64,000 nt of DNA, taken from positions 7,010 to 71,009 of the IMG/VR virus record IMGVR_UViG_2834101283_000005. The stretch is one strand, 5' to 3'. The translations under genes were made by a program, and so were the position numbers. The notes under the pieces were generated by a model, which was given only the letters and a program-made list of their open reading frames with translations, had not been told where the DNA came from and ran no database searches. The DNA is from a virus. Taxonomy: Duplodnaviria; Caudoviricetes. Positions 31,893-49,898 of the stretch are shown piece by piece (the stretch's first letter is position 1; each line of letters opens with the position of its first letter).

Positions 31893-32760
31893 GTAATTTT
31901 TTAGGCGGCGACCCGACAACGAGAGCGCTGTAATCTCTACGGGGACCGGCGCGATGGGCGGCGACCTATTACGCCTCGATGCTAAATGCAGTTAGATGTA
32001 TCTTTTTGAACACTGTGAAGACCGTTGACAGCGTGCAGTGACTAGCCCATATTCGGGGGCTTTTTACGGATACGTAAAATTGACCAACCGTTTCGTGTAG
32101 CAGCGATGCTGCACGAGTAGGAGCCGACCAAAGTTCCGAAATAAGGCTATGGTGCTGCGCCATAAGGTACTGTAATGCAGGGCTTTCGGTGGGATGCGTA
32201 ATTTGTCGTGAGTGAAAAGCTGCGGCAGCCTGCGACGGCGATAGTGGGGGCTATCGAGCCTAGCAGGAATCCCAACCAAGCATCTTAGCTGTGACGCCTT
32301 GGAAACAGGGCTATAACATTGGAAGCTTGTACAAGTAGCTCAAACGGCTGATTCAAAAAAGACATTTGTTATTTAATACTACATTAAAATCATATGGCGA
32401 ATGTCGAGTGAACGTTGCCGGTAACAACCCGGCCATGCATTTTCCGTTCTAAAACGGCTTGGAGATAGTCATGGGGTAGCTCCCCTCGGCTCGCCCTCCT
32501 TGGCATGTAGCAAAACAGCTTTATGGCGGAGTAAGCAGAAATGCTCAATAAAGGTGCATCTGAGTGCATTTAGCACAATATATAGTGAATGTCCTAAGGG
32601 ACATGTTCAAAAAGGGGCACGGCTCCTTGGGTATAACAGCTTTGTGCTGACATACATATGATTACCGGGTTCCTTTTTCAGGTGCGGTCTTGGACAAACC
32701 GCACCTTGGGACCGTTATGTTGCGAGGCTTAGGGCGAGCCTTCAATCGCTCTATTTTCAT
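31893..32760 (+). ncRNA. Large structured ncRNA candidate (ROOL/GOLLD-like)
   Basis: About 870 nt without a credible ORF, ahead of tRNAs. Perfect 11-bp pair TGCTAAATGCA (31980-31990)/TGCATTTAGCA (32565-32575) closes 596 nt; many internal hairpins. Confidence 0.6.
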
Positions 32761-32836
32761 ACTCCGATAGCTCAATCGGTAGAGCAACTGGCTGTTAACC
32801 AGTGGGTTACAGGTTCGAGACCTGTTCGGGGTGCCA
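32761..32836 (+). tRNA. tRNA-Asn(GTT)
   Basis: ACUCCGA/UCGGGGU acceptor stem, CU-GUU-AA loop, GGTTCGAG T-arm, CCA. Confidence 0.92.
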
Positions 32837-32839
32837 TAT

Positions 32840-32916
32840 GCCGGTGTAGCTCAGTTGGCTAGAGCAATAATCTTGTAAATTAAAGGTCGAAGGTTCGAGT
32901 CCTTCCATCGGCTCCA
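32840..32916 (+). tRNA. tRNA-Thr(TGT)
   Basis: GCCGGUG/CAUCGGC acceptor stem, CU-UGU-AA loop, CCA; one mismatch in the anticodon stem. Confidence 0.88.
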
Positions 32917-33024
32917 CGATTGAAAAATCGTCTAAGCGCACGGTTTTTGGAGGGGTTAGGTTACGACCAGACCCCAATTTTTTATCATCACAGATAATTG
33001 GCAGGGTACGTTCCTGCCTCGCAT

Positions 33025-33112
33025 GGGCGGTTGGCCGAGCGGTTGAAGGCACTTGTCTTGAAAACAAGCAGGCTGAAAAGTCTCGTAGGTTCGAATCCTG
33101 CACCGTCCGCCA
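33025..33112 (+). tRNA. tRNA-Ser(TGA)
   Basis: GGGCGGU/ACCGUCC acceptor stem, CU-UGA-AA loop, long variable arm, CCA. Confidence 0.92.
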
Positions 33113-42493: not shown

Positions 42494-44605
42494 ATGGCAG
42501 ACGAATTAAATAATGAACGCATAGGGTTTTCCGTCGATGTGACGACAGGGAAATCTACAGAAAATATTGATGCGGTCGTTAAACAGATTGACTCTTTAAA
42601 AGACCGAATTACTGATTTAAAGAAGCAGCGTAAAGGTGCAGATGAGGTTGCTCTTGACGACTTAAATAAGAGCATCCGAGAAGCACAACGGGAGTTGAAT
42701 AAGCTCAATTCGGTCTACACTTCATGGATTCAAAAAGCAACCGACATCAACACGAAACCTATCGGCGACGTAAAGAAACAGATTCAGGAATTGCAGAGAG
42801 TGTTGGAGTCGTGGAGTGGCAACCCGAAGGATTTTCAAAAGCAGATTCTTGACCGCTTCCTGATTCCCAACTCAGCCATCGAACAAGCCCGGTTGTATCG
42901 GGAAGCTATTCGGCAGATTGAAGGCCTGGCTAATTCGGGAGCTATCAGCACGCAGAGAGCAGCCCTAGCTACAAATCGATTTAGTGCATCTTTAAAAGAC
43001 GCAGAACGTAGAGCTAGGGCATTAAAAGATGCGGTCGATGGCATTCCGAGTTCGACTAAGCGGTTAACCGATAGAACCGTTCAGCAGGTCTTCTCTGGTT
43101 GGGATGGAAAGACCGATTTCCTTCGTAATTTCACGCCCGCTGAAAGCTACTCTAAAGAGCTTTCACAGCTTAAGAAGATGGTCGATGAACTCAAAAGGGG
43201 TTTCGGAGATAGCACAGACATTGGCGTTCAGAACCGCTTAAAGAAAGCCATCGATGAGATTACGGTTGCCTATCGAGAAGCCAAAAAGGCCAAAGATGAG
43301 CTGAACGGGCGGATTACTGGCAAGGCCGAAGAAGAAGCCAAAAAGGCACAGGCCAAAGCGCAGCAAGAATTAAACAAGGAAATCCGAGAACAAGCCAAAG
43401 CGTCCAAAGAGGCAGAGCAGGCGACAACGCAAAGTGTGCGGTCGGCAGTACAACAGTATAGACGCCTTCAAGAGCAGCTTGAAGAAGTACAAGCCAAGAT
43501 TAAGATGAATTACATCGACAACTATAAAACGAACCGTAACGCTTATGGCGAGAATTTAGCTCCTTTGCTTACTCAATATAAACAGCTTTCTAAGCAAATT
43601 AAGGATGCAGAACGCAACATGGATTTGTTGGCACTCAAGGCGGACTTTTTCGGGACCACTTGGGATAAAATTACTCATCGTATGGGTTGGGTATTGACAA
43701 GTTTTGGAGCAGCAGGACTTTTCGGTGGCGCAAACGCATATTTCAACACATTACGCGATGTTGAAAAAGAAATGGCTCAATTTTCACAGGTCATGAGCCA
43801 CGGTGCGCCTGTCGTCGAAGGAGCAGAAGAACTTTCCCGGTCGGTTGGAGCTGCTTCCATTTCCGTAAACGCTTTTGGTAAATCCATCCATGACTTGTCT
43901 ATTGAGGATTTGCAAAAAGGGATGCGCGAAGGGGTTGTTGGTTCCAAATTATTTAAAGATGAACTTGACGCTATGCAGCAATCCTTGATAAACCTTGCGA
44001 TTAAATATGGCGAAGCTCATAAAGACGTTGCCGAGTCCGCTACATTGTGGGGCCGGATGTACAAAGATAATAACATCGTCCTGACCATGACTGACGCTGC
44101 CATGAAATTGGCCGTAGCGGATAGTTTTAGCGTTGTTCAGGCGAATAAAAATCTCGAATCGTCTATTGCTCAGTGGGGATTTGAGATTAAAAACAACAAC
44201 GATGCAATGGCCGTTTCGTCTAAGATTTGTGACTCATGGACTGCGATTGCGCACAACATGGCCGTATCCGCACAAGACTTGTCGGCTGCTAATCAGAGAG
44301 CTGCTTCTTCGATGCACGCTGCAGGTATCGAATTTGACGTAGGGCAAGCCATCCTCGCCACAATGCTTCGTAATACGCAGCAGGCAGGCGGCGAAATCGG
44401 TAACGCTATGAAGTCTATTATCGGTTCTATTCACAGCAAAAAAGCTGTTGAAGAAATCGAAAAAATGGGCGTTGCGGTATACGAGTTCGACGAAAATGGT
44501 TCTAAGCATTTCCGTAATGTAGGCCAAGTGCTTGTCGACTTAATGATTAAAACCCAAGGCACAGAAAAGAACCTTGAAAACCTGTTCATGAAAATTGCTG
44601 GGGGT
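42494..44605 (+). CDS. Tape measure protein, exon 1
   Basis: TP901-type TMP core (SLINLAIKYG...EIGNAMKSI); similarity ends at KIAGG. Confidence 0.9.
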
Positions 44606-44895
44606 AAACCATCATACTTGCCCCAACCGCAGGTAACTGCGGCGTAAAAAACGGTTTTATATCGGTCAAAGTCCCAGAAGTGGGGGAGACCGAGGGAAAC
44701 TGCAATTATTCCAATTAGAACACAAACATATGTTTGTATAAAAAGAAAAAATGTGTTATAATATATTTAGTGATATAAAAAAAGAGCCTACAGCTCAGAT
44801 TCGGCATGTTTAAAAAAATAGGGTATAAGCGAAGCGTAACGTAAACGGCCCTGAGTATCAGCGAAAACCTTCGTTGGGTTGCAACGCTGCGCATG

Positions 44896-44982
44896 TTAGC
44901 ACAGCTTAATGACCCAAATCAGGTTGGAGACAGAATCAACCAACCGAGACAGGGCCAAAATGAGAGATACAATATCACTCAT
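44896..44982 (-). CDS. 28-aa hydrophobic peptide (type I toxin-like) inside intron loop L6
   Basis: MSDIVSLILALSRLVDSVSNLIWVIKLC; SD AGGGAGG; overlapped by a plus-strand transcript from TTGTAT-N17-TATAAT (44734-44762). Confidence 0.65.
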   Translation of the reverse strand: MSDIVSLILALSRLVDSVSNLIWVIKLC

Positions 44983-45072
44983 AAGACAACCTCCCTAGGA
45001 CTAATCACCAATAAAAAACATGCCCCTTGGCTGTGGCTCTCGTATATTACTATAACACAATACGCGCAAAAG

Positions 45073-45100
45073 AAAAAGACACCCCAAAAGGTGTCTTTTT
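45073..45100. terminator. Bidirectional terminator inside the intron
   Basis: AAAAAGACACC-ccaaaa-GGTGTCTTTTT. Confidence 0.8.
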
Positions 45101-45200
45101 GATTGGAATAAATGCAGACCCCGAACGACTGACATAACCGCCCCTTGCAGGACACAAGGGTGAATATACAGTCTAACCATAGGGATAACTGAAAAGAAGC

Positions 45201-45563
45201 CTATGATTTATTTTGTTGTTGCTGTTCGTATGCTGCTTGTAGAATAAAGGGGAAGAAAAAGACTATTGCTACAATGACCGCAATAATAATTCCGCCAAAT
45301 GACCAAGATGGGCTAACCCCCAACCATTTAAAGAATTCTATTACAAGTAAACACCAAATTATCCAACCTATTATTTGAACAAGCCAACCAAGGAAGAAAA
45401 ATTGCAGAATCCCGTAAAATATAGGAATCATGACCCTAGCTAAGCACAGAAAAACAATGGTCATAATAAAGCCCATCGCCCCAACTTTTGCGGCGTAGGC
45501 AAATCCGAGGATTAACAAAATAATTCCGATTAATATGGTTCCGCACCCTATTTTATCGTTCAT
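45201..45563 (-). CDS. Multi-pass membrane protein encoded antisense within the intron 3' region
   Basis: 120 aa, 3-4 TM segments; own TGGTATAAT promoter and SD AAGGAAG. Confidence 0.8.
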   Translation of the reverse strand: MNDKIGCGTILIGIILLILGFAYAAKVGAMGFIMTIVFLCLARVMIPIFYGILQFFFLGWLVQIIGWIIWCLLVIEFFKWLGVSPSWSFGGIIIAVIVAIVFFFPFILQAAYEQQQQNKS

Positions 45564-45641
45564 AGTATCACTTCCTTTATAACAATATTATACCACGAAC
45601 ATACATACGTAACAAAAATAATTACAACAGAATAATATAAG

Positions 45642-48600
45642 AAGTATCAATGGAACAAAGCCGGAGCTATGCTTAACTACAGCGATTTTCTTCATGCGTT
45701 GCGGTTAAGCACTGAATCTTACGGCTTTACTCAAGAACAGGTAGCAATGCAAATGGATACGATAGCAAGAAAAGCTGAACAATTTCAGCAACAGCTTGTA
45801 TCACTATCCACTGGTGCAGGCAATTTATCTTCTGCCTTTAAATTAATTATTGACGGCGCAAGGAAAATAGTTGAAATAGCAGACCAATTAAGCACATCCC
45901 AATTAATCACTTTTGTTGTAAGCGGTGTTTTGTTTGCTAAAACAACTGCTATTGTGGGTGCGTTGAAAAGTATAGTTAGTATTTTAGGGACTATGCGTGC
46001 TTTGTTGGTCAGTATAGGGACTAGAAATTTCCTTAGTAATTTAAGTGCCACAGCCACTTTGCCGGGTATATTAAAAATTGTTGGTGCTTTGGGAATGTTA
46101 ATCACCCTTTATGACGTATTGAGTGGAAAAGAAGCAGATGCTCGTGCTATCCGTGAAGGCCAAGCGGAAGAAATTACATCCCAAATTGAACTTGAAGAAG
46201 AATTATTAAACCGTAAAGAACAGTCTCTCGAATCTATCCGCGCATATGCGGAAGGATACCGTGCAATTTCCGAACGCTTGAAAGAAGCCAACCTTTCAGA
46301 AGAAGAACGGAATAAGTTGCTTAAAGACCAGCAAAGCACCCATGAGGCGTTGGTTAATATTATTGGCGAAAAAGACGCGGTTAATGTAGAGGCTCACGCA
46401 AACGAGTCTGCTTATTTAGACGAAATTATCAGTAAGCATAAAGAGCAAATCGCCACAGACCGAAGTGGATTGCAGGAAAAAGCTCAAGGTTTAAAAACGA
46501 TTGCGGATGCCGAACTTGAATACACTAAACAAGTTGCTGAAAACCTCGACATCCAAAAACAGGGTATTGGTGGCGTTATTGAGGAATTAATCAGGTTGGG
46601 CCGTTGGTGGGACGCCATTATGTTGAAATTACAGGATTTCAACCGCTCCTTCGATTCGGCAATGCTTAAAAACCACACTCGGCGGTTACAGTCTTTGCAG
46701 AACATGAAAAAGCAAGGGCTTACTAATGAATGGGGGCTTTTGGGCGAACTTGTTGGTACTCAAAGCATAGACGAAGCGATTGCCGAAGAACAAGAGTTAG
46801 TCAATAAATATAGTAGCGCAGTAGACGAAGATACTAAATCCATCAATGGGGCAGCTAATCGCACCAAAGGGGAAGAAGTTACTAAAGGATTGCAAAATAT
46901 ACAGCGCTACAATGCCAATATGAACAGCATACTTGGTAATGGCTTTAACCAGACCTCAAAGGGTGGTTCGGAAATTGATGAATCTGGTGGCGGCTCTGGC
47001 GGTTCTGGCAAGAAAGGCAAAAAGCGAGTTTTTGACATGGAAGGCAACGAAATCCGCATCCCGAACGCTTCCAATTACGTAACCGAAGATGGCGTAGACC
47101 GCAATGTAACCCAAGATACAGAACTCAAGCTCCGCATTATGGACGAAGCCTTTTATCGCAAATTTGGACAGCACTTGCTTGTATCTTCCATGAAGCGGAA
47201 TCGTGGCGATGGCTCCAAACATGACGATGGGTTAGCATTCGACCTTGTTGGAGACATCCTTGAAAATAACCCCGGCGCACGTCAATGGTTGTCGGATTAT
47301 GGCTCTTGGATTGGCTTGACCGCCTTGGACGAATATTTGCCAGAGAATGCGCATTATGCTCGTGGCGGTGGCAATCTTCATTTTTCCAACAACGGTGCAT
47401 CCATTTATGACATCCTTGGTTCAGCAGCTAAGACGAATGCCGACTTTAAGGACAATTCTGTTCAAAGGCAGCTTTATGATGCCCTGAAAGCAGAAAACCT
47501 TTCGGACAAACAGGCATGGGCCGCAATGGCTGCTATTGGTGGAGAATCCAGTTTTGACCCCGGTGCCATCCAAGAAGGGATGAGTTTTGAAGACCCCAAG
47601 GCTGGTATTGGTTTGATGCAATGGACAGCCGACCGCAAACAGGCTTACCTTGACTTTGTGGCTCAGAGGGCTGCAATGGGGGGCAGTTCAGATTGGCGTG
47701 ATTTGGCAAACCAGTTGGCCTTTATGCGGTGGGAAATGAATAACACCGAAGCAGGCTCTTGGCAAGAATATTTAAATGGCGTAACCAATGACACATCTGC
47801 CGAAGGCGACGTAAGACTGTTCACGTCGAAGGTAGAACGTGCGGGCATCCCCAATATTGCCAACCGTATGCAGTATTACGGCGACGTTTCCAGCCATTAC
47901 GTAAACGGTATGTCCCTTTACGACTCTGACCCGTCTAAGGTAAAACAACTCACGCCTGAACAGAGAGCCGAAAAAGAAGCGAAACGGTTGCAGCAATATT
48001 ACAATACGCTCAACAAAGCCGCCGATACGCTCGAAAAAGTTGTTGGAGAAAAGTATAAGTACGCTATGGATGTTATCAATGAAGACCAGCAGTTGTTTGG
48101 TCAGAACATGGAAAACACTGGCAAGCAGCTCGACACCTACCAGGCGAAACTTGTGGACGACGTAAATATTACGGAGCAGTATTCCAAGGTGCTTGAAAAA
48201 GTTGTCAACAACTTGAGCGATGCTGACTCACAGCGGCTTTTCCATATGGGTAAAGACGACTTTTTGAAACTTGAACTGGAAGAGCAGCAAAAGCTTATTG
48301 CCGGGATTGATGCAGAATCAGCCCTCTATAAACCTATTCTGGCAACTTTGAATGAGATTGTCAAGGTTAAGCAAAAGATTCGTGAGTCGGATGAGCAATA
48401 TCATAAAGACCAAATGGAATGGGTTAAGCTGTATCAGAACCGCACAAAGCTTCGGTATGACAAGCCAATCCAAAGCGAAAACGACGACATCCGGGAATGG
48501 GAAATTACGCATAGCAATGAAAGATATGATGCGTTTTATCGTAATATTTTCGAACAGCAACATCTTGAAGAAATCGCAAGACTTGCCAAGGAAAAATACG

Positions 48601-49898
48601 ACGAAATGATGCAGCCTATCTTGGATGCGGAAGGGAACCCTGTGTATGACCGAGCTGGCAATCAGTTGTTCGGTGGTTCTCCCGAAGAAATCGAAAAGCA
48701 GAAACAGGCATGGCTTGAAGCGGATGCAGCAGCCAAAAAGTATGCGGCGACGCTCAAGAACGACGTAAACCAGCAGTTTACCGAGTTTACTAAGAGTGTA
48801 CTAATCCAAGGAGAAAGCTTGCGGGATAAACTCAAAAACCTTTGGAAGCAGCTTGGCGAAGATGCTTTAACGTTACTTTTGAGCGGTGGCAAAGAAGGGA
48901 CAAATTCGCTTCTTGGAAACATCCTGCGTCAATTCGTAAATCGTCATCGTGACCAGAAAGACCAATTTTTAGATGGCCCATATGGCTATAAAATGCCATA
49001 TGACACAACCTTTACAACGTATGCGACTGGTCCCATGTCGGCATATATGAGCAACGGCACCTATCGGCCTAGTATGGCTTCTTGGGGACAAGCAATCGGA
49101 GCAACCGAGCCAGTTGTAGGGGTTGACCCGTTGACAGGTAGCCACTTCTCGACCATCAATACAGCCACATTGGCGAATCCGACACCCGTGTACGTAACTA
49201 ACGCAGCTAACATTGCAGGTGGAATCGGGAACGCAGTTAACTCACTCACTGATGGGCTACCTGCAGGCACGGCTATCCCTGATATGAAATATTCTTTTGG
49301 CGTCGACGGAAGCGTAACCAATATGGCTAAAACTTTGCAAGGTATAGCCGGTTTTACGACTAAATACAACTGGGGGATGCCAACCTCCGGTGGCGGTTGG
49401 GGAGATTTAGCTCTTGGCAATAAGCTTGGTATTTTTGCTAATACACTTCCTTGGCTGTTCCGTTTATTTGGCCATCATGCGAGCGGTGGCAAAGTAGATG
49501 AAGAAGAAATAGCAACCCTTGGCGAAAATGATAAGACCGAATACGTCATCCCTACGGAGCAGAACCGCCCTCGTGGTGTGGCTCTTTGGAAGAAAGCTGG
49601 GGAAGATTTGGGTGTACTCTCAAAAGGTTCCCCGGTAGTCCCGAACTTCAAGAACAAGGAACTTGCCACGAGGGGTGTCATGTCAGTACAAGTCAAACAG
49701 CAGGCAGTCTACATGGAGCAGATGAAGCGGCAGAATCAGACGTTGCTTAACATCCTTTCGGCGATGGCTAATAACCAGGCCAACAACGGCGGTGGCGGAA
49801 CAGCCGTTATGCAGCCGGTTGTCGTTAAGCAGTCTATGGACATGAACGAATTCACTCGGATGTACCAGAAAGGGAAAAGCTACAACTACTTGAAATAA
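45642..49898 (+). CDS. Tape measure protein, exon 2 (peptidase M15-like and phage-lysozyme-like domains); spliced product about 2122 aa
   Basis: In frame with ORF 45669-49898; SKHDDGLAFDL...LHFS; AIGGESSFDP...GIGLMQWT...QLAFMRWE. Confidence 0.88.
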   Translation, partial: KYQWNKAGAMLNYSDFLHALRLSTESYGFTQEQVAMQMDTIARKAEQFQQQLVSLSTGAGNLSSAFKLIIDGARKIVEIADQLSTSQLITFVVSGVLFAKTTAIVGALKSIVSILGTMRALLVSIGTRNFLSNLSATATLPGILKIVGALGMLITLYDVLSGKEADARAIREGQAEEITSQIELEEELLNRKEQSLESIRAYAEGYRAISERLKEANLSEEERNKLLKDQQSTHEALVNIIGEKDAVNVEAHANESAYLDEIISKHKEQIATDRSGLQEKAQGLKTIADAELEYTKQVAENLDIQKQGIGGVIEELIRLGRWWDAIMLKLQDFNRSFDSAMLKNHTRRLQSLQNMKKQGLTNEWGLLGELVGTQSIDEAIAEEQELVNKYSSAVDEDTKSINGAANRTKGEEVTKGLQNIQRYNANMNSILGNGFNQTSKGGSEIDESGGGSGGSGKKGKKRVFDMEGNEIRIPNASNYVTEDGVDRNVTQDTELKLRIMDEAFYRKFGQHLLVSSMKRNRGDGSKHDDGLAFDLVGDILENNPGARQWLSDYGSWIGLTALDEYLPENAHYARGGGNLHFSNNGASIYDILGSAAKTNADFKDNSVQRQLYDALKAENLSDKQAWAAMAAIGGESSFDPGAIQEGMSFEDPKAGIGLMQWTADRKQAYLDFVAQRAAMGGSSDWRDLANQLAFMRWEMNNTEAGSWQEYLNGVTNDTSAEGDVRLFTSKVERAGIPNIANRMQYYGDVSSHYVNGMSLYDSDPSKVKQLTPEQRAEKEAKRLQQYYNTLNKAADTLEKVVGEKYKYAMDVINEDQQLFGQNMENTGKQLDTYQAKLVDDVNITEQYSKVLEKVVNNLSDADSQRLFHMGKDDFLKLELEEQQKLIAGIDAESALYKPILATLNEIVKVKQKIRESDEQYHKDQMEWVKLYQNRTKLRYDKPIQSENDDIREWEITHSNERYDAFYRNIFEQQHLEEIARLAKEKYDEMMQPILDAEGNPVYDRAGNQLFGGSPEEIEKQKQAWLEADAAAKKYAATLKNDVNQQFTEFTKSVLIQGESLRDKLKNLWKQLGEDALTLLLSGGKEGTNSLLGNILRQFVNRHRDQKDQFLDGPYGYKMPYDTTFTTYATGPMSAYMSNGTYRPSMASWGQAIGATEPVVGVDPLTGSHFSTINTATLANPTPVYVTNAANIAGGIGNAVNSLTDGLPAGTAIPDMKYSFGVDGSVTNMAKTLQGIAGFTTKYNWGMPTSGGGWGDLALGNKLGIFANTLPWLFRLFGHHASGGKVDEEEIATLGENDKTEYVIPTEQNRPRGVALWKKAGEDLGVLSKGSPVVPNFKNKELATRGVMSVQVKQQAVYMEQMKRQNQTLLNILSAMANNQANNGGGGTAVMQPVVVKQSMDMNEFTRMYQKGKSYNYLK

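What the first reader, a model, noticed from the sequence alone, without database searches (positions are those of the whole stretch)
44717..45100. Type I toxin-antitoxin-like cassette nested in intron loop L6
A minus-strand extended -10 (about 45049-45058), a structured leader and SD AGGGAGG precede a 28-aa amphipathic peptide (44982-44896). A consensus plus-strand promoter (44734-44762) and a terminator (45073-45100) define an antisense RNA of about 330 nt covering it entirely. Such an addiction module could replace homing as the force maintaining the intron. The late TMP transcript and excised intron are also antisense to the toxin, and the internal terminator implies late antitermination.
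Basis: partly seen in the sequence, partly recalled or inferred. Interest (0 to 1): 0.8.

Follow-up and report, generated by a model that had tools for sequence, protein, structure and literature searches.

The report
Toxin-like minigene inside a phage intron
A self-splicing intron in a gut prophage's tail tape-measure gene carries, backwards in one hairpin loop, a small self-contained gene for a 28-residue membrane-type peptide built like an RNA-controlled (type I) toxin-antitoxin module, but neither toxicity nor the antisense RNA is shown.

Summary
The tape-measure gene is split by a group I-type intron (44606-45641), and the cassette sits in the extended P6 hairpin.

Relatives changed the reading in four ways.
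- The cassette (about 44718-45067) is an optional insert. One close relative has it, and another with a 99% identical 5' intron half lacks it.
- The hairpin at 45073-45100 belongs to the intron backbone and is present in relatives without the cassette. It always carries a minus-strand U-run, so it most likely terminates the 3'-domain gene.
- The peptide gene looks real. A phage whose tape-measure exons are only 45-68% identical carries three such minigenes in tandem in the same loop. One encodes a homologue of this peptide: no indels, dN/dS about 0.28, four charged positions kept.
- All four predicted mRNAs pair their 5' end with their 3' end, as hok-type toxin mRNAs do.

The plus-strand promoter has a perfect extended -10 but is the mirror arm of an inverted repeat with the peptide promoter, so it is weak independent evidence.

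There is no expression data and no homology to any known toxin. Most intron relatives lack the cassette, so it cannot be what maintains the intron. Other notes of this scan report similar cassettes in other gut-phage tape-measure introns.

The parts
44606..45641 (+). Group I-type intron splitting the tape-measure gene. Exon 1 ends at 44605 and exon 2 starts at 45642.
   Evidence: U.G pair at the 5' splice site in P1 (44601-44605 with 44620-44624). P10 pairs 45642-45647 with 44614-44619 and covaries with exon 2 in relatives. The last intron base is G. The unsplit homologue P0127 aligns exon 1's end to residue 681 and exon 2's start to residue 682. RNAalifold on 6 short relatives gives 55 pairs, 12 of them compensatory. 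Rfam does not call it.
44708..44715 (+). 5' arm of the P6 extension helix that encloses the cargo. It pairs with 45102-45109.
44718..45067 (.). Optional 350-nt insert (the cassette proper) relative to cassette-less intron variants.
   Evidence: Alignment A1: the insert is present in L002 and absent in L003, L006 and L007, which have only the backbone hairpin here.
44722..44737 (+). Small palindromic hairpin overlapping the -35 of the plus promoter. It is an RNA hairpin of the P6 extension or an operator-like site.
   Evidence: The homologous position in L009 is a hairpin with a GAAA loop.
44734..44762 (+). Plus-strand promoter-like site: TTGTAT, 17-nt spacer, TG-extended perfect TATAAT. The predicted start of the antisense RNA is near 44769.
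   Evidence: Geometry is kept in L010/L011 (TTGCAT, 17 nt, same -10), and that site was listed by the scan. It is the mirror arm of the minus promoter.
44777..44796 (-). Intrinsic terminator of the peptide mRNA: 5-bp stem, 3-nt loop, seven U.
   Evidence: The stem is conserved in L010 module B.
44783..44812 (-). 3' arm of the long-range 5'-3' pairing of the peptide mRNA.
   Evidence: It is 93% identical to L010 module B, while the adjacent 3'UTR is 62% identical.
44896..44982 (-). 28-codon ORF (P0001), an amphipathic peptide with charges at positions 3, 13, 16 and 26.
   Evidence: A homologue in L010/L011 has no indel over 78 nt, 6.5 synonymous and 6.5 non-synonymous differences, and dN/dS 0.28.
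44990..44996 (-). Shine-Dalgarno AGGGAGG, 7 nt upstream of the ATG.
   Evidence: The GGAGG core is kept in L010 module B.
45016..45043 (-). 5' end of the peptide mRNA, which is the 5' arm of the long-range pairing.
   Evidence: Promoter plus arm are 47/48 identical to L010 module B.
45049..45057 (-). Extended -10 promoter (TGTTATAGT) of the peptide mRNA.
   Evidence: The same motif precedes modules B and C of L010. It is one of 11 such motifs in the provirus.
45073..45100 (.). Backbone P6 hairpin of the intron. It is a terminator for minus-strand transcripts coming from the 120-aa gene at 45563-45201, and a possible plus-strand terminator.
   Evidence: Present with or without cargo in L006, L008, L009, L010, L020 and L024. 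The minus-strand U-run is always present; after the plus-strand stem L020 has only two U's before an A-run. Weak Rfam resemblance to antisense-RNA terminators on the minus strand.

Best explanation
The 350-nt insert is a genuine, self-contained minigene added to the P6 loop of a group I-type intron, and it reads opposite to the tape-measure gene.

Proposed mechanism:
- In the lysogen, an extended -10 promoter (45057-45049) makes an mRNA of about 265 nt. This mRNA carries a strong SD, a 28-codon ORF for an amphipathic, TisB-sized membrane-type peptide, a 100-nt structured 3'UTR and its own terminator.
- The mRNA's 5' end pairs with its 3' end. This fold-back should keep the full-length mRNA poorly translated, as in hok-type and other type I toxin mRNAs.
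- A facing promoter (44734-44762) would make a plus-strand RNA that is fully complementary to the mRNA and stops at the intron's own P6 hairpin (about 335 nt).
- During lytic growth, the late tape-measure transcript and the excised intron supply the same antisense sequence.

The unit therefore most likely works like a type I toxin-antitoxin or antisense-gated small-toxin module carried as a moron.

Shown: anatomy, optional presence, conservation of the frame and of the RNA arms, and membership in a small family of tandem modules.
Inferred: transcription from both promoters, peptide toxicity, and the antitoxin role of the plus RNA.
For: - All elements are at the stated coordinates.
- Presence/absence polymorphism in otherwise near-identical introns (L006 is 99% identical in exon 1 and the 5' core).
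- L010/L011 carry three tandem minus-strand modules in the same loop. Each has the extended -10, an SD, a 20-27-codon hydrophobic or amphipathic ORF and a terminator.
- Module B is the homologue of the window peptide. ORF codons 2-27 are 83% identical with 0 gap columns, against 17 gap columns in the 3'UTR. dN/dS is 0.28, the lowest of the six frames. Charges at positions 3, 13, 16 and 26 are kept, while the overlapping plus-strand ORF is not kept.
- All four module mRNAs fold with 5'-3' end pairing although the arm sequences differ between modules A, B and C. In B the arms are 93-98% identical across lineages whose exons are 45-68% identical.
- The RNAalifold consensus is more stable on the minus strand (-64.8 against -56.4 kcal/mol) and includes conserved G.U pairs that would be A.C on the plus strand.
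- The plus promoter keeps TTG, a 17-nt spacer and a TG-extended TATAAT in L010/L011. Only 8 perfect TGnTATAAT sites exist in the whole provirus.
- Established knowledge: type I loci pair a small hydrophobic toxin with an antisense RNA and are common in prophages, often as converging transcripts (abstracts; PMC4147584).
Against: - There is no RNA or protein data.
- There is no similarity to any known toxin or antitoxin family: Pfam, PHROGs and Rfam gave nothing, and tblastn in phages and plasmids gave nothing.
- Only two independent lineages carry the peptide, so dN/dS rests on 13 changes.
- The plus promoter is the inverted-repeat partner of the minus promoter, so a closing stem would generate it by itself. 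Its -35 matches 3 of 6.
- The long-range helices are almost all Watson-Crick, so they would also form in the intron RNA. The plus-strand z-score (-7.0) is stronger than the minus-strand one (-5.3).
- The peptide has four charges and is amphipathic rather than plainly transmembrane.
- Two of the three L010 modules have weak start codons (TTG, ATA). This could mean decay.
Confidence: 0.5

Rival explanations
1. It is a plain moron: a lysogeny-expressed small membrane peptide, for example for superinfection exclusion or another host-modifying role, like the other small membrane proteins carried by this intron family. There is no dedicated antitoxin. The plus 'promoter' is only the mirror arm of a stem that keeps the insert compact in the intron RNA.
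For: - Every intron relative carries some small membrane-protein gene, mostly on the minus strand.
- The cassette has its own promoter and terminator and is present or absent among close relatives.
- The plus promoter is part of an inverted repeat.
- There is no homology to known toxins.
Against: - The perfect TG-extended -10 with TTG at 17 nt is kept across lineages, and by established knowledge of Firmicute promoters it is likely to fire. Any transcript from it is antisense to the peptide mRNA.
- The 35 nt from the -10 to the terminator stem are identical in L010 although the adjacent module differs.
- 5'-3' fold-back and SD-masking hairpins are typical of tightly silenced toxin mRNAs.
Confidence: 0.3
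2. There is no gene. The insert is a structured RNA extension of P6 (a peripheral intron domain), and the SD and ORF on the other strand are fortuitous.
For: - The plus-strand fold z-score is -7.0 and the insert closes on itself.
- An SD plus ORF arises in 7% of shuffles.
- Compensatory changes occur inside the ORF hairpin.
Against: - The frame, SD and start are kept with no indel, and replacements are conservative, across a lineage where the UTRs carry many indels.
- Three different modules in L010 all show promoter, SD, short hydrophobic ORF and terminator on the same strand.
- The insert is dispensable for the intron.
- The minus-strand consensus fold is the more stable one.
Confidence: 0.1
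3. It is a relic of a mobile element: a MITE-like unit with terminal inverted repeats, or a decayed homing-endonuclease gene.
For: Inverted-repeat ends and an A-rich 10-nt direct repeat flank the insert (44740-44749 and 45066-45075).
Against: - No other copy exists in the provirus.
- No copy was found in IMG/VR, GTDB genomes, JGI metagenomes, phage records or plasmids.
- No endonuclease remnant appears in any frame.
- The arms differ between modules A, B and C, which fits RNA pairing rather than a shared transposase site.
Confidence: 0.05

Closest known systems
Type I toxin-antitoxin loci of Firmicute prophages and mobile elements with converging transcripts: txpA/RatA and bsrG/SR4 of B. subtilis, and fst RNAI/RNAII of pAD1 (PMC4147584)
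   Same: A small hydrophobic or amphipathic peptide ORF on a structured mRNA. A facing promoter whose RNA overlaps the toxin mRNA from its 3' end. A location in a prophage. A size of about 350 nt.
   Different: There is no sequence or profile similarity to any of these families. The predicted overlap is complete (about 265 nt) rather than 75-120 nt. The antisense RNA would end at a hairpin that belongs to the host intron. The module lies inside a ribozyme loop within an essential structural gene.
hok/sok-type fold-back mRNAs, and TisB as a peptide type (own knowledge, not tested here)
   Same: The 5' end of the full-length mRNA pairs with the 3' end. The peptide is 28 residues and amphipathic, with four charges whose positions (3 with 26, 13 with 16) would match in an antiparallel dimer, reminiscent of the TisB charge zipper. 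Hydrophobicity and moment are similar to TisB (the TisB sequence was recalled from memory).
   Different: No homology. No evidence of 3' processing. tisB's antitoxin is divergent, not overlapping.
Group I introns in prophage tape-measure genes of the Bacillus cereus group (TMP-IVS1-3; Tourasse and Kolsto 2008, PMC2504315)
   Same: A group I intron in a tape-measure gene of a temperate Firmicute phage, mostly without a homing endonuclease.
   Different: Those introns are described as ORF-less or endonuclease-bearing. Here the loops carry antisense accessory minigenes. Rfam's group I model does not recognise this family.
Phage morons: promoter-gene-terminator units present in one phage and absent in its close relative (own knowledge)
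   Same: An autonomous transcription unit, optional among near-identical relatives, presumably expressed from the prophage.
   Different: It is inserted inside an intron loop rather than between genes. It is arranged with a facing promoter. It occurs as tandem arrays with conserved terminator-promoter junctions.

Membership tests
Type I toxin-antitoxin system | Small (under about 60 aa) hydrophobic or membrane-active peptide ORF with its own translation signals | tested here: met
   28 aa, mean hydrophobicity 0.39, moment 0.30, SD 7 nt from the ATG. The frame is conserved in L010/L011.
Type I toxin-antitoxin system | An antisense RNA from its own promoter that base-pairs with the toxin mRNA | tested here: inconclusive
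   A perfect TG-extended -10 with a 17-nt spacer is kept across lineages. It is the mirror arm of an inverted repeat, and no transcript data could be obtained.
Type I toxin-antitoxin system | The peptide is toxic when over-expressed and the RNA relieves the toxicity | not testable with these tools
   Needs an expression assay.
Type I toxin-antitoxin system | Homology to a described toxin or antitoxin family (Fst, TxpA, Hok, Ldr, Ibs, TisB and others; RatA, SR4, Sok and others) | tested here: not met
   No hit in Pfam, PHROGs or Rfam, nor by tblastn against phages and plasmids.
Type I toxin-antitoxin system | Toxin mRNA structure that limits translation (fold-back or SD masking) | tested here: met
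   Predicted 5'-3' pairing in all four modules and SD-masking hairpins in modules A and C. This is in silico only.
Group I intron | P1 with a U.G pair at the 5' splice site, an internal guide that also pairs with exon 2 (P10), and a terminal G | tested here: met
   P10 changes together with exon 2 in L008, L009 and L010.
Group I intron | Precise removal restores a continuous host protein | tested here: met
   The unsplit homologue P0127 is contiguous across the junction, residues 681|682.
Group I intron | Conserved catalytic core recognised by the family model | tested here: inconclusive
   12 compensatory pairs in P2, P6, P8 and P9 and an invariant P7. The Rfam model gives no hit, even on the minimal variant.
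Group I intron | Self-splicing activity | not testable with these tools
   Needs in vitro or in vivo splicing assays.
Moron | Autonomous promoter-gene-terminator unit, present in one phage and absent in a close relative | tested here: met
MITE-like mobile element | Multiple dispersed copies with terminal inverted repeats and target-site duplications | tested here: not met
   Inverted ends are present, but there is no second copy in the provirus or in any collection searched.

The most novel reading that the evidence does not exclude
Introns in essential phage structural genes serve as protected landing pads for arrays of lysogeny-expressed, toxin-like minigenes. These minigenes are gated by antisense transcription. 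A mirror-image promoter pair at the ends of the array gives both the peptide mRNA and its antisense. The late transcript and the excised intron act as a built-in 'off' switch at induction. Modules are gained, lost and shuffled by recombination at conserved terminator-promoter junctions.
Probability: 0.25. Interest if true: 0.75.

Novelty: new variant of a known kind. Interest (0 to 1): 0.6.

Why it matters
Group I introns in phages are thought to persist through homing endonucleases or simple neutrality, and type I toxin-antitoxin modules and morons are known between genes. If confirmed, this case shows a ribozyme loop inside an essential tail gene acting as a safe harbour for accessory minigenes. 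Splicing removes them from the host message, and the host gene's own transcript is their antisense. That links lysogeny-specific expression, antisense control and intron biology. Natural with-cassette and without-cassette pairs (window/L002 against L006) make it directly testable. The papers I searched do not describe a toxin-antitoxin-like module inside a group I intron.

Tried and rejected
Searches for relatives of the cassette or peptide that found nothing:
- blastn of the region against phage records.
- tblastn of the peptide against phages and plasmids at E up to 10.
- Exact or degenerate DNA patterns for the SD-start region, the peptide C-terminus, the conserved leader block and the A/C-type leader in IMG/VR.
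- The leader block in GTDB genomes.
- The leader block in JGI metagenomes. The single hit, L019, is a chance match in an unrelated high-GC contig.
- Paralogues within the provirus.

Tools that could not be applied:
- The peptide is too short for the search for related loci and the search for homologous proteins, and for structure or complex prediction.
- The genome search draws no relatives for a virus record.

Other negative results:
- Single-protein scans with the tape-measure exon found no close relatives in IMG/VR or GTDB. A profile scan later found L023 and L024.
- Rfam gave no group I hit at the gathering or E-value thresholds on the window, on cassette-less relatives or on the minimal intron. 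The only local hits are sub-threshold terminator look-alikes.
- Pfam found no homing-endonuclease remnant in any longer ORF of the insert.

Ideas rejected:
- The plus-strand 69-aa ORF overlapping the peptide was rejected as a gene. It has no start and is truncated in L010.
- I considered using G.U asymmetry to decide which strand's structure is selected. The long closing helices are all Watson-Crick, so the test only leans towards the minus strand.
- Host identity was not settled. The terminase is closest, at 37-39%, to phages of gut Clostridia.

Full report
**What is at the coordinates.**
- On the minus strand there is an extended -10 (TGTTATAGT, 45057-45049), a leader of about 60 nt, the SD AGGGAGG (44996-44990) seven bases before an ATG, and a 28-codon ORF (44982-44896).
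- A minus-strand intrinsic terminator follows about 100 nt later (stem 44796-44784, seven U).
- On the plus strand lies TTGTAT, a 17-nt spacer, and a TG-extended perfect TATAAT (44734-44762).
- The -35 matches only 3 of 6, which is why the consensus scan did not list it.
- At 45073-45100 there is a hairpin flanked by an A-run and a U-run.

**The intron is real.**
- The tape-measure gene is in two ORFs, 42494-44647 and 45669-49898.
- Exon 1 ends at a U (44605) that makes a U.G pair in a 5-bp P1 with 44620-44624.
- The six bases just 5' of that guide (44614-44619) pair with the first six bases of exon 2 (45642-45647), the intron ends in G (45641), and the junction is in frame.
- An unsplit homologue of 2121 aa (P0127) aligns exon 1's last residue to its residue 681 and exon 2's first residue to 682.
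- In relatives, the first exon 2 codons differ and the guide changes to match. The last intron base is always G.
- RNAalifold on six short natural variants gives P1, P2, P2.1, a P4-P5-like arm, P6, P7, P8 and P9 with 12 compensatory pairs.
- Caveat: Rfam's group I model gives no hit on the window, on cassette-less relatives or on the minimal variant.
- Group I introns in prophage tape-measure genes, mostly without endonuclease, are published for the Bacillus cereus group (PMC2504315).

**Comparative census.** The 120-aa minus-strand membrane protein in the intron's 3' part (P0002) and tape-measure exon 1 led to 13 intron lineages at this same site in gut and animal metagenome assemblies and in IMG/VR.
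- All carry some small membrane-protein gene in the 3' domain.
- The P6 loop is a plain 7-bp hairpin in the minimal forms (L012-L018, L021-L023).
- It holds only a longer hairpin in L003-L008 and L020.
- It carries cargo in four lineages: the window with L002 (one peptide module), L010/L011 (three tandem minus-strand peptide modules), L009 (a plus-strand 114-aa ORF) and L024 (a plus-strand promoter-plus-terminator unit).
- L006 is 99% identical to the window in exon 1 and the 5' intron core, lacks the 350-nt insert, and is only 83% identical to the right of it. The loop is therefore also a recombination junction.

**The 'terminator' belongs to the intron.**
- The hairpin at 45073-45100 is present, with small compensated changes, in every long-P6 variant whether or not cargo is present.
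- On the minus strand it is always followed by a U-rich run: six to nine consecutive U in L006, L008, L020 and L024, and interrupted runs of about nine U in the window, L002, L009 and L010.
- On the plus strand the run is four or five U, except in L020, where only two U precede an A-run.
- Its most economical role is to terminate the minus-strand gene of the 3' domain (45563-45201 here).
- It may also stop a plus-strand RNA, but it is not a part of the cassette. Arguments built on it, such as late antitermination, concern the intron backbone.

**The peptide gene is probably real.**
- L010/L011 come from a phage whose exons are only 68% (exon 1) and 45% (exon 2) identical to the window at the DNA level, yet its intron cores are 88-93% identical.
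- Its middle module is the homologue of the window cassette.
  - Promoter plus 5' arm: 47/48 identical.
  - 3' arm plus terminator: 26/28 identical.
  - ORF codons 2-27: 65/78 identical with no gap.
  - Rest of the leader: 73% identical with 4 gap columns.
  - 3'UTR: 62% identical with 17 gap columns.
- There are 6.5 synonymous and 6.5 non-synonymous differences. dN/dS is 0.28, the lowest of the six frames.
- Replacements are conservative, and the four charged positions (3, 13, 16, 26) are kept.
- The start is ATG here and TTG there, and the SD core is kept.
- The overlapping plus-strand 69-aa ORF is not kept.
- The sample is small (13 changes, two independent lineages), and an SD plus ORF arises in 7% of shuffles. 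I therefore put 'real gene' at about 0.8, not higher.
- The two flanking modules of L010 encode different short peptides. One is a plainly hydrophobic 20-mer (P0273).
- Both flanking modules have the same promoter type, an SD-masking hairpin, an SD and a terminator.

**RNA architecture.**
- The predicted peptide mRNA (about 45043 to 44777) folds with z = -5.3.
- Its 5' end pairs with its 3' end.
- The same 5'-3' closure is predicted for all three L010 modules although their arm sequences differ. This is the strongest hint that the closure is functional.
- The helices are nearly all Watson-Crick, so they also form in the plus-strand (intron) RNA, which folds with z = -7.0.
- The two-lineage consensus is somewhat better on the minus strand: -64.8 against -56.4 kcal/mol, and 68 against 61 pairs. 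Conserved G.U pairs would be A.C on the other strand.
- Both constraints may act: fold-back control of the mRNA, and compaction of the insert so that P6 still forms.

**The plus promoter.**
- Its -10 is one of only eight perfect TGnTATAAT sites in the 71-kb provirus, and three of eleven TGnTATA(A/G)T sites lie in this intron.
- The TTG, the 17-nt spacer and the -10 are kept in L010/L011.
- There, the 35 nt from the -10 to the terminator stem are identical to the window even though a different module follows.
- By established knowledge of Firmicute promoters, such an extended -10 is likely to fire, and any transcript from it is antisense to the peptide mRNA.
- Against this, the site is the left arm of an inverted repeat whose right arm is the minus-strand promoter. 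A stem that includes one promoter automatically writes a mirror promoter on the other side, so this is not independent evidence for an antitoxin gene.

**Family membership.** Pfam, PHROGs and Rfam gave no match for the peptide or the RNAs, and there is no endonuclease remnant. The module works like a type I system on paper but is not a member of any described family.

**Most likely mechanism (confidence about 0.5).**
- This is a moron-type minigene whose mRNA is held inactive by fold-back and by a fully complementary plus-strand RNA. In the lytic phase the late transcript and excised intron supply the same antisense.
- The peptide acts on the membrane.
- The main rival (0.3) is the same minigene without a dedicated antitoxin.
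- A purely structural RNA (0.1) and a mobile-element relic (0.05) are less likely.

- 'Addiction replaces homing' is not supported. The intron is widespread without the cassette, and only 2 of 13 lineages have peptide modules.
- The statement that the late transcript and the excised intron are antisense to the mRNA is true by geometry.
- Late antitermination is untested.

**Novelty.**
- A full-text search found no paper that places a type I toxin-antitoxin module in a group I intron.
- Tape-measure introns and prophage type I systems are both known.
- Other notes of this scan, which I did not check, report similar cassettes in tape-measure introns of other gut phages. The arrangement seems recurrent rather than unique to this window.

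Noticed in passing
window 45147-45153 versus L010 5646-5652: The 7-nt loop of intron helix P8 is the exact reverse complement in L010/L011 compared with the window, with identical stems. This looks like a DNA-level flip between the stem arms. L006 has a different P8 with compensated stem changes.
   Followed up: partly
window 44606-45641 versus L006 and L010: The P6 loop is a recombination junction. L006 is 99% identical to the left and 83% identical to the right of it. Between the window and L010 the intron cores (88-93%) are far more alike than the exons (68% and 45%), which suggests that the intron with its cargo moves between diverged phages.
   Followed up: partly
L010 4746-5556 (same in L011): Three tandem minus-strand peptide modules sit in the P6 loop, joined by conserved terminator-promoter junctions. 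Two of the three have weak start codons (TTG, ATA).
   Followed up: partly
L024 7165-7440: Another relative carries different cargo in the same loop: a plus-strand TG-extended promoter followed about 85 nt later by a hairpin with a U-run. This is an sRNA-like unit with no clear ORF.
   Followed up: no
window 45201-45615; L018 5660-5805; L082 5130-5870: Every intron variant carries a small membrane-protein gene in its 3' domain. Most are antisense (120 aa here, with a TG-extended promoter at 45595). In L018 it is a sense-strand 47-aa two-helix protein. In L082 sense-strand membrane ORFs follow a related intron 5' core.
   Followed up: partly
window 31987-33109: Rfam calls a full-length ROOL RNA (238 bits) followed by three tRNA genes, just upstream of the terminase.
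   Followed up: no
window 44606-45641 and L012 5512-5747: Rfam release 15 does not recognise this intron family at any threshold, even in its 230-nt minimal form, despite P1/P10 and core covariation. Automatic annotation will therefore call the tape-measure gene as two genes.
   Followed up: yes
window 44740-44749 and 45066-45075: The same A-rich 10-mer flanks the insert on both sides and recurs at the module junctions of L010. It could be a target duplication or the site where modules recombine.
   Followed up: no
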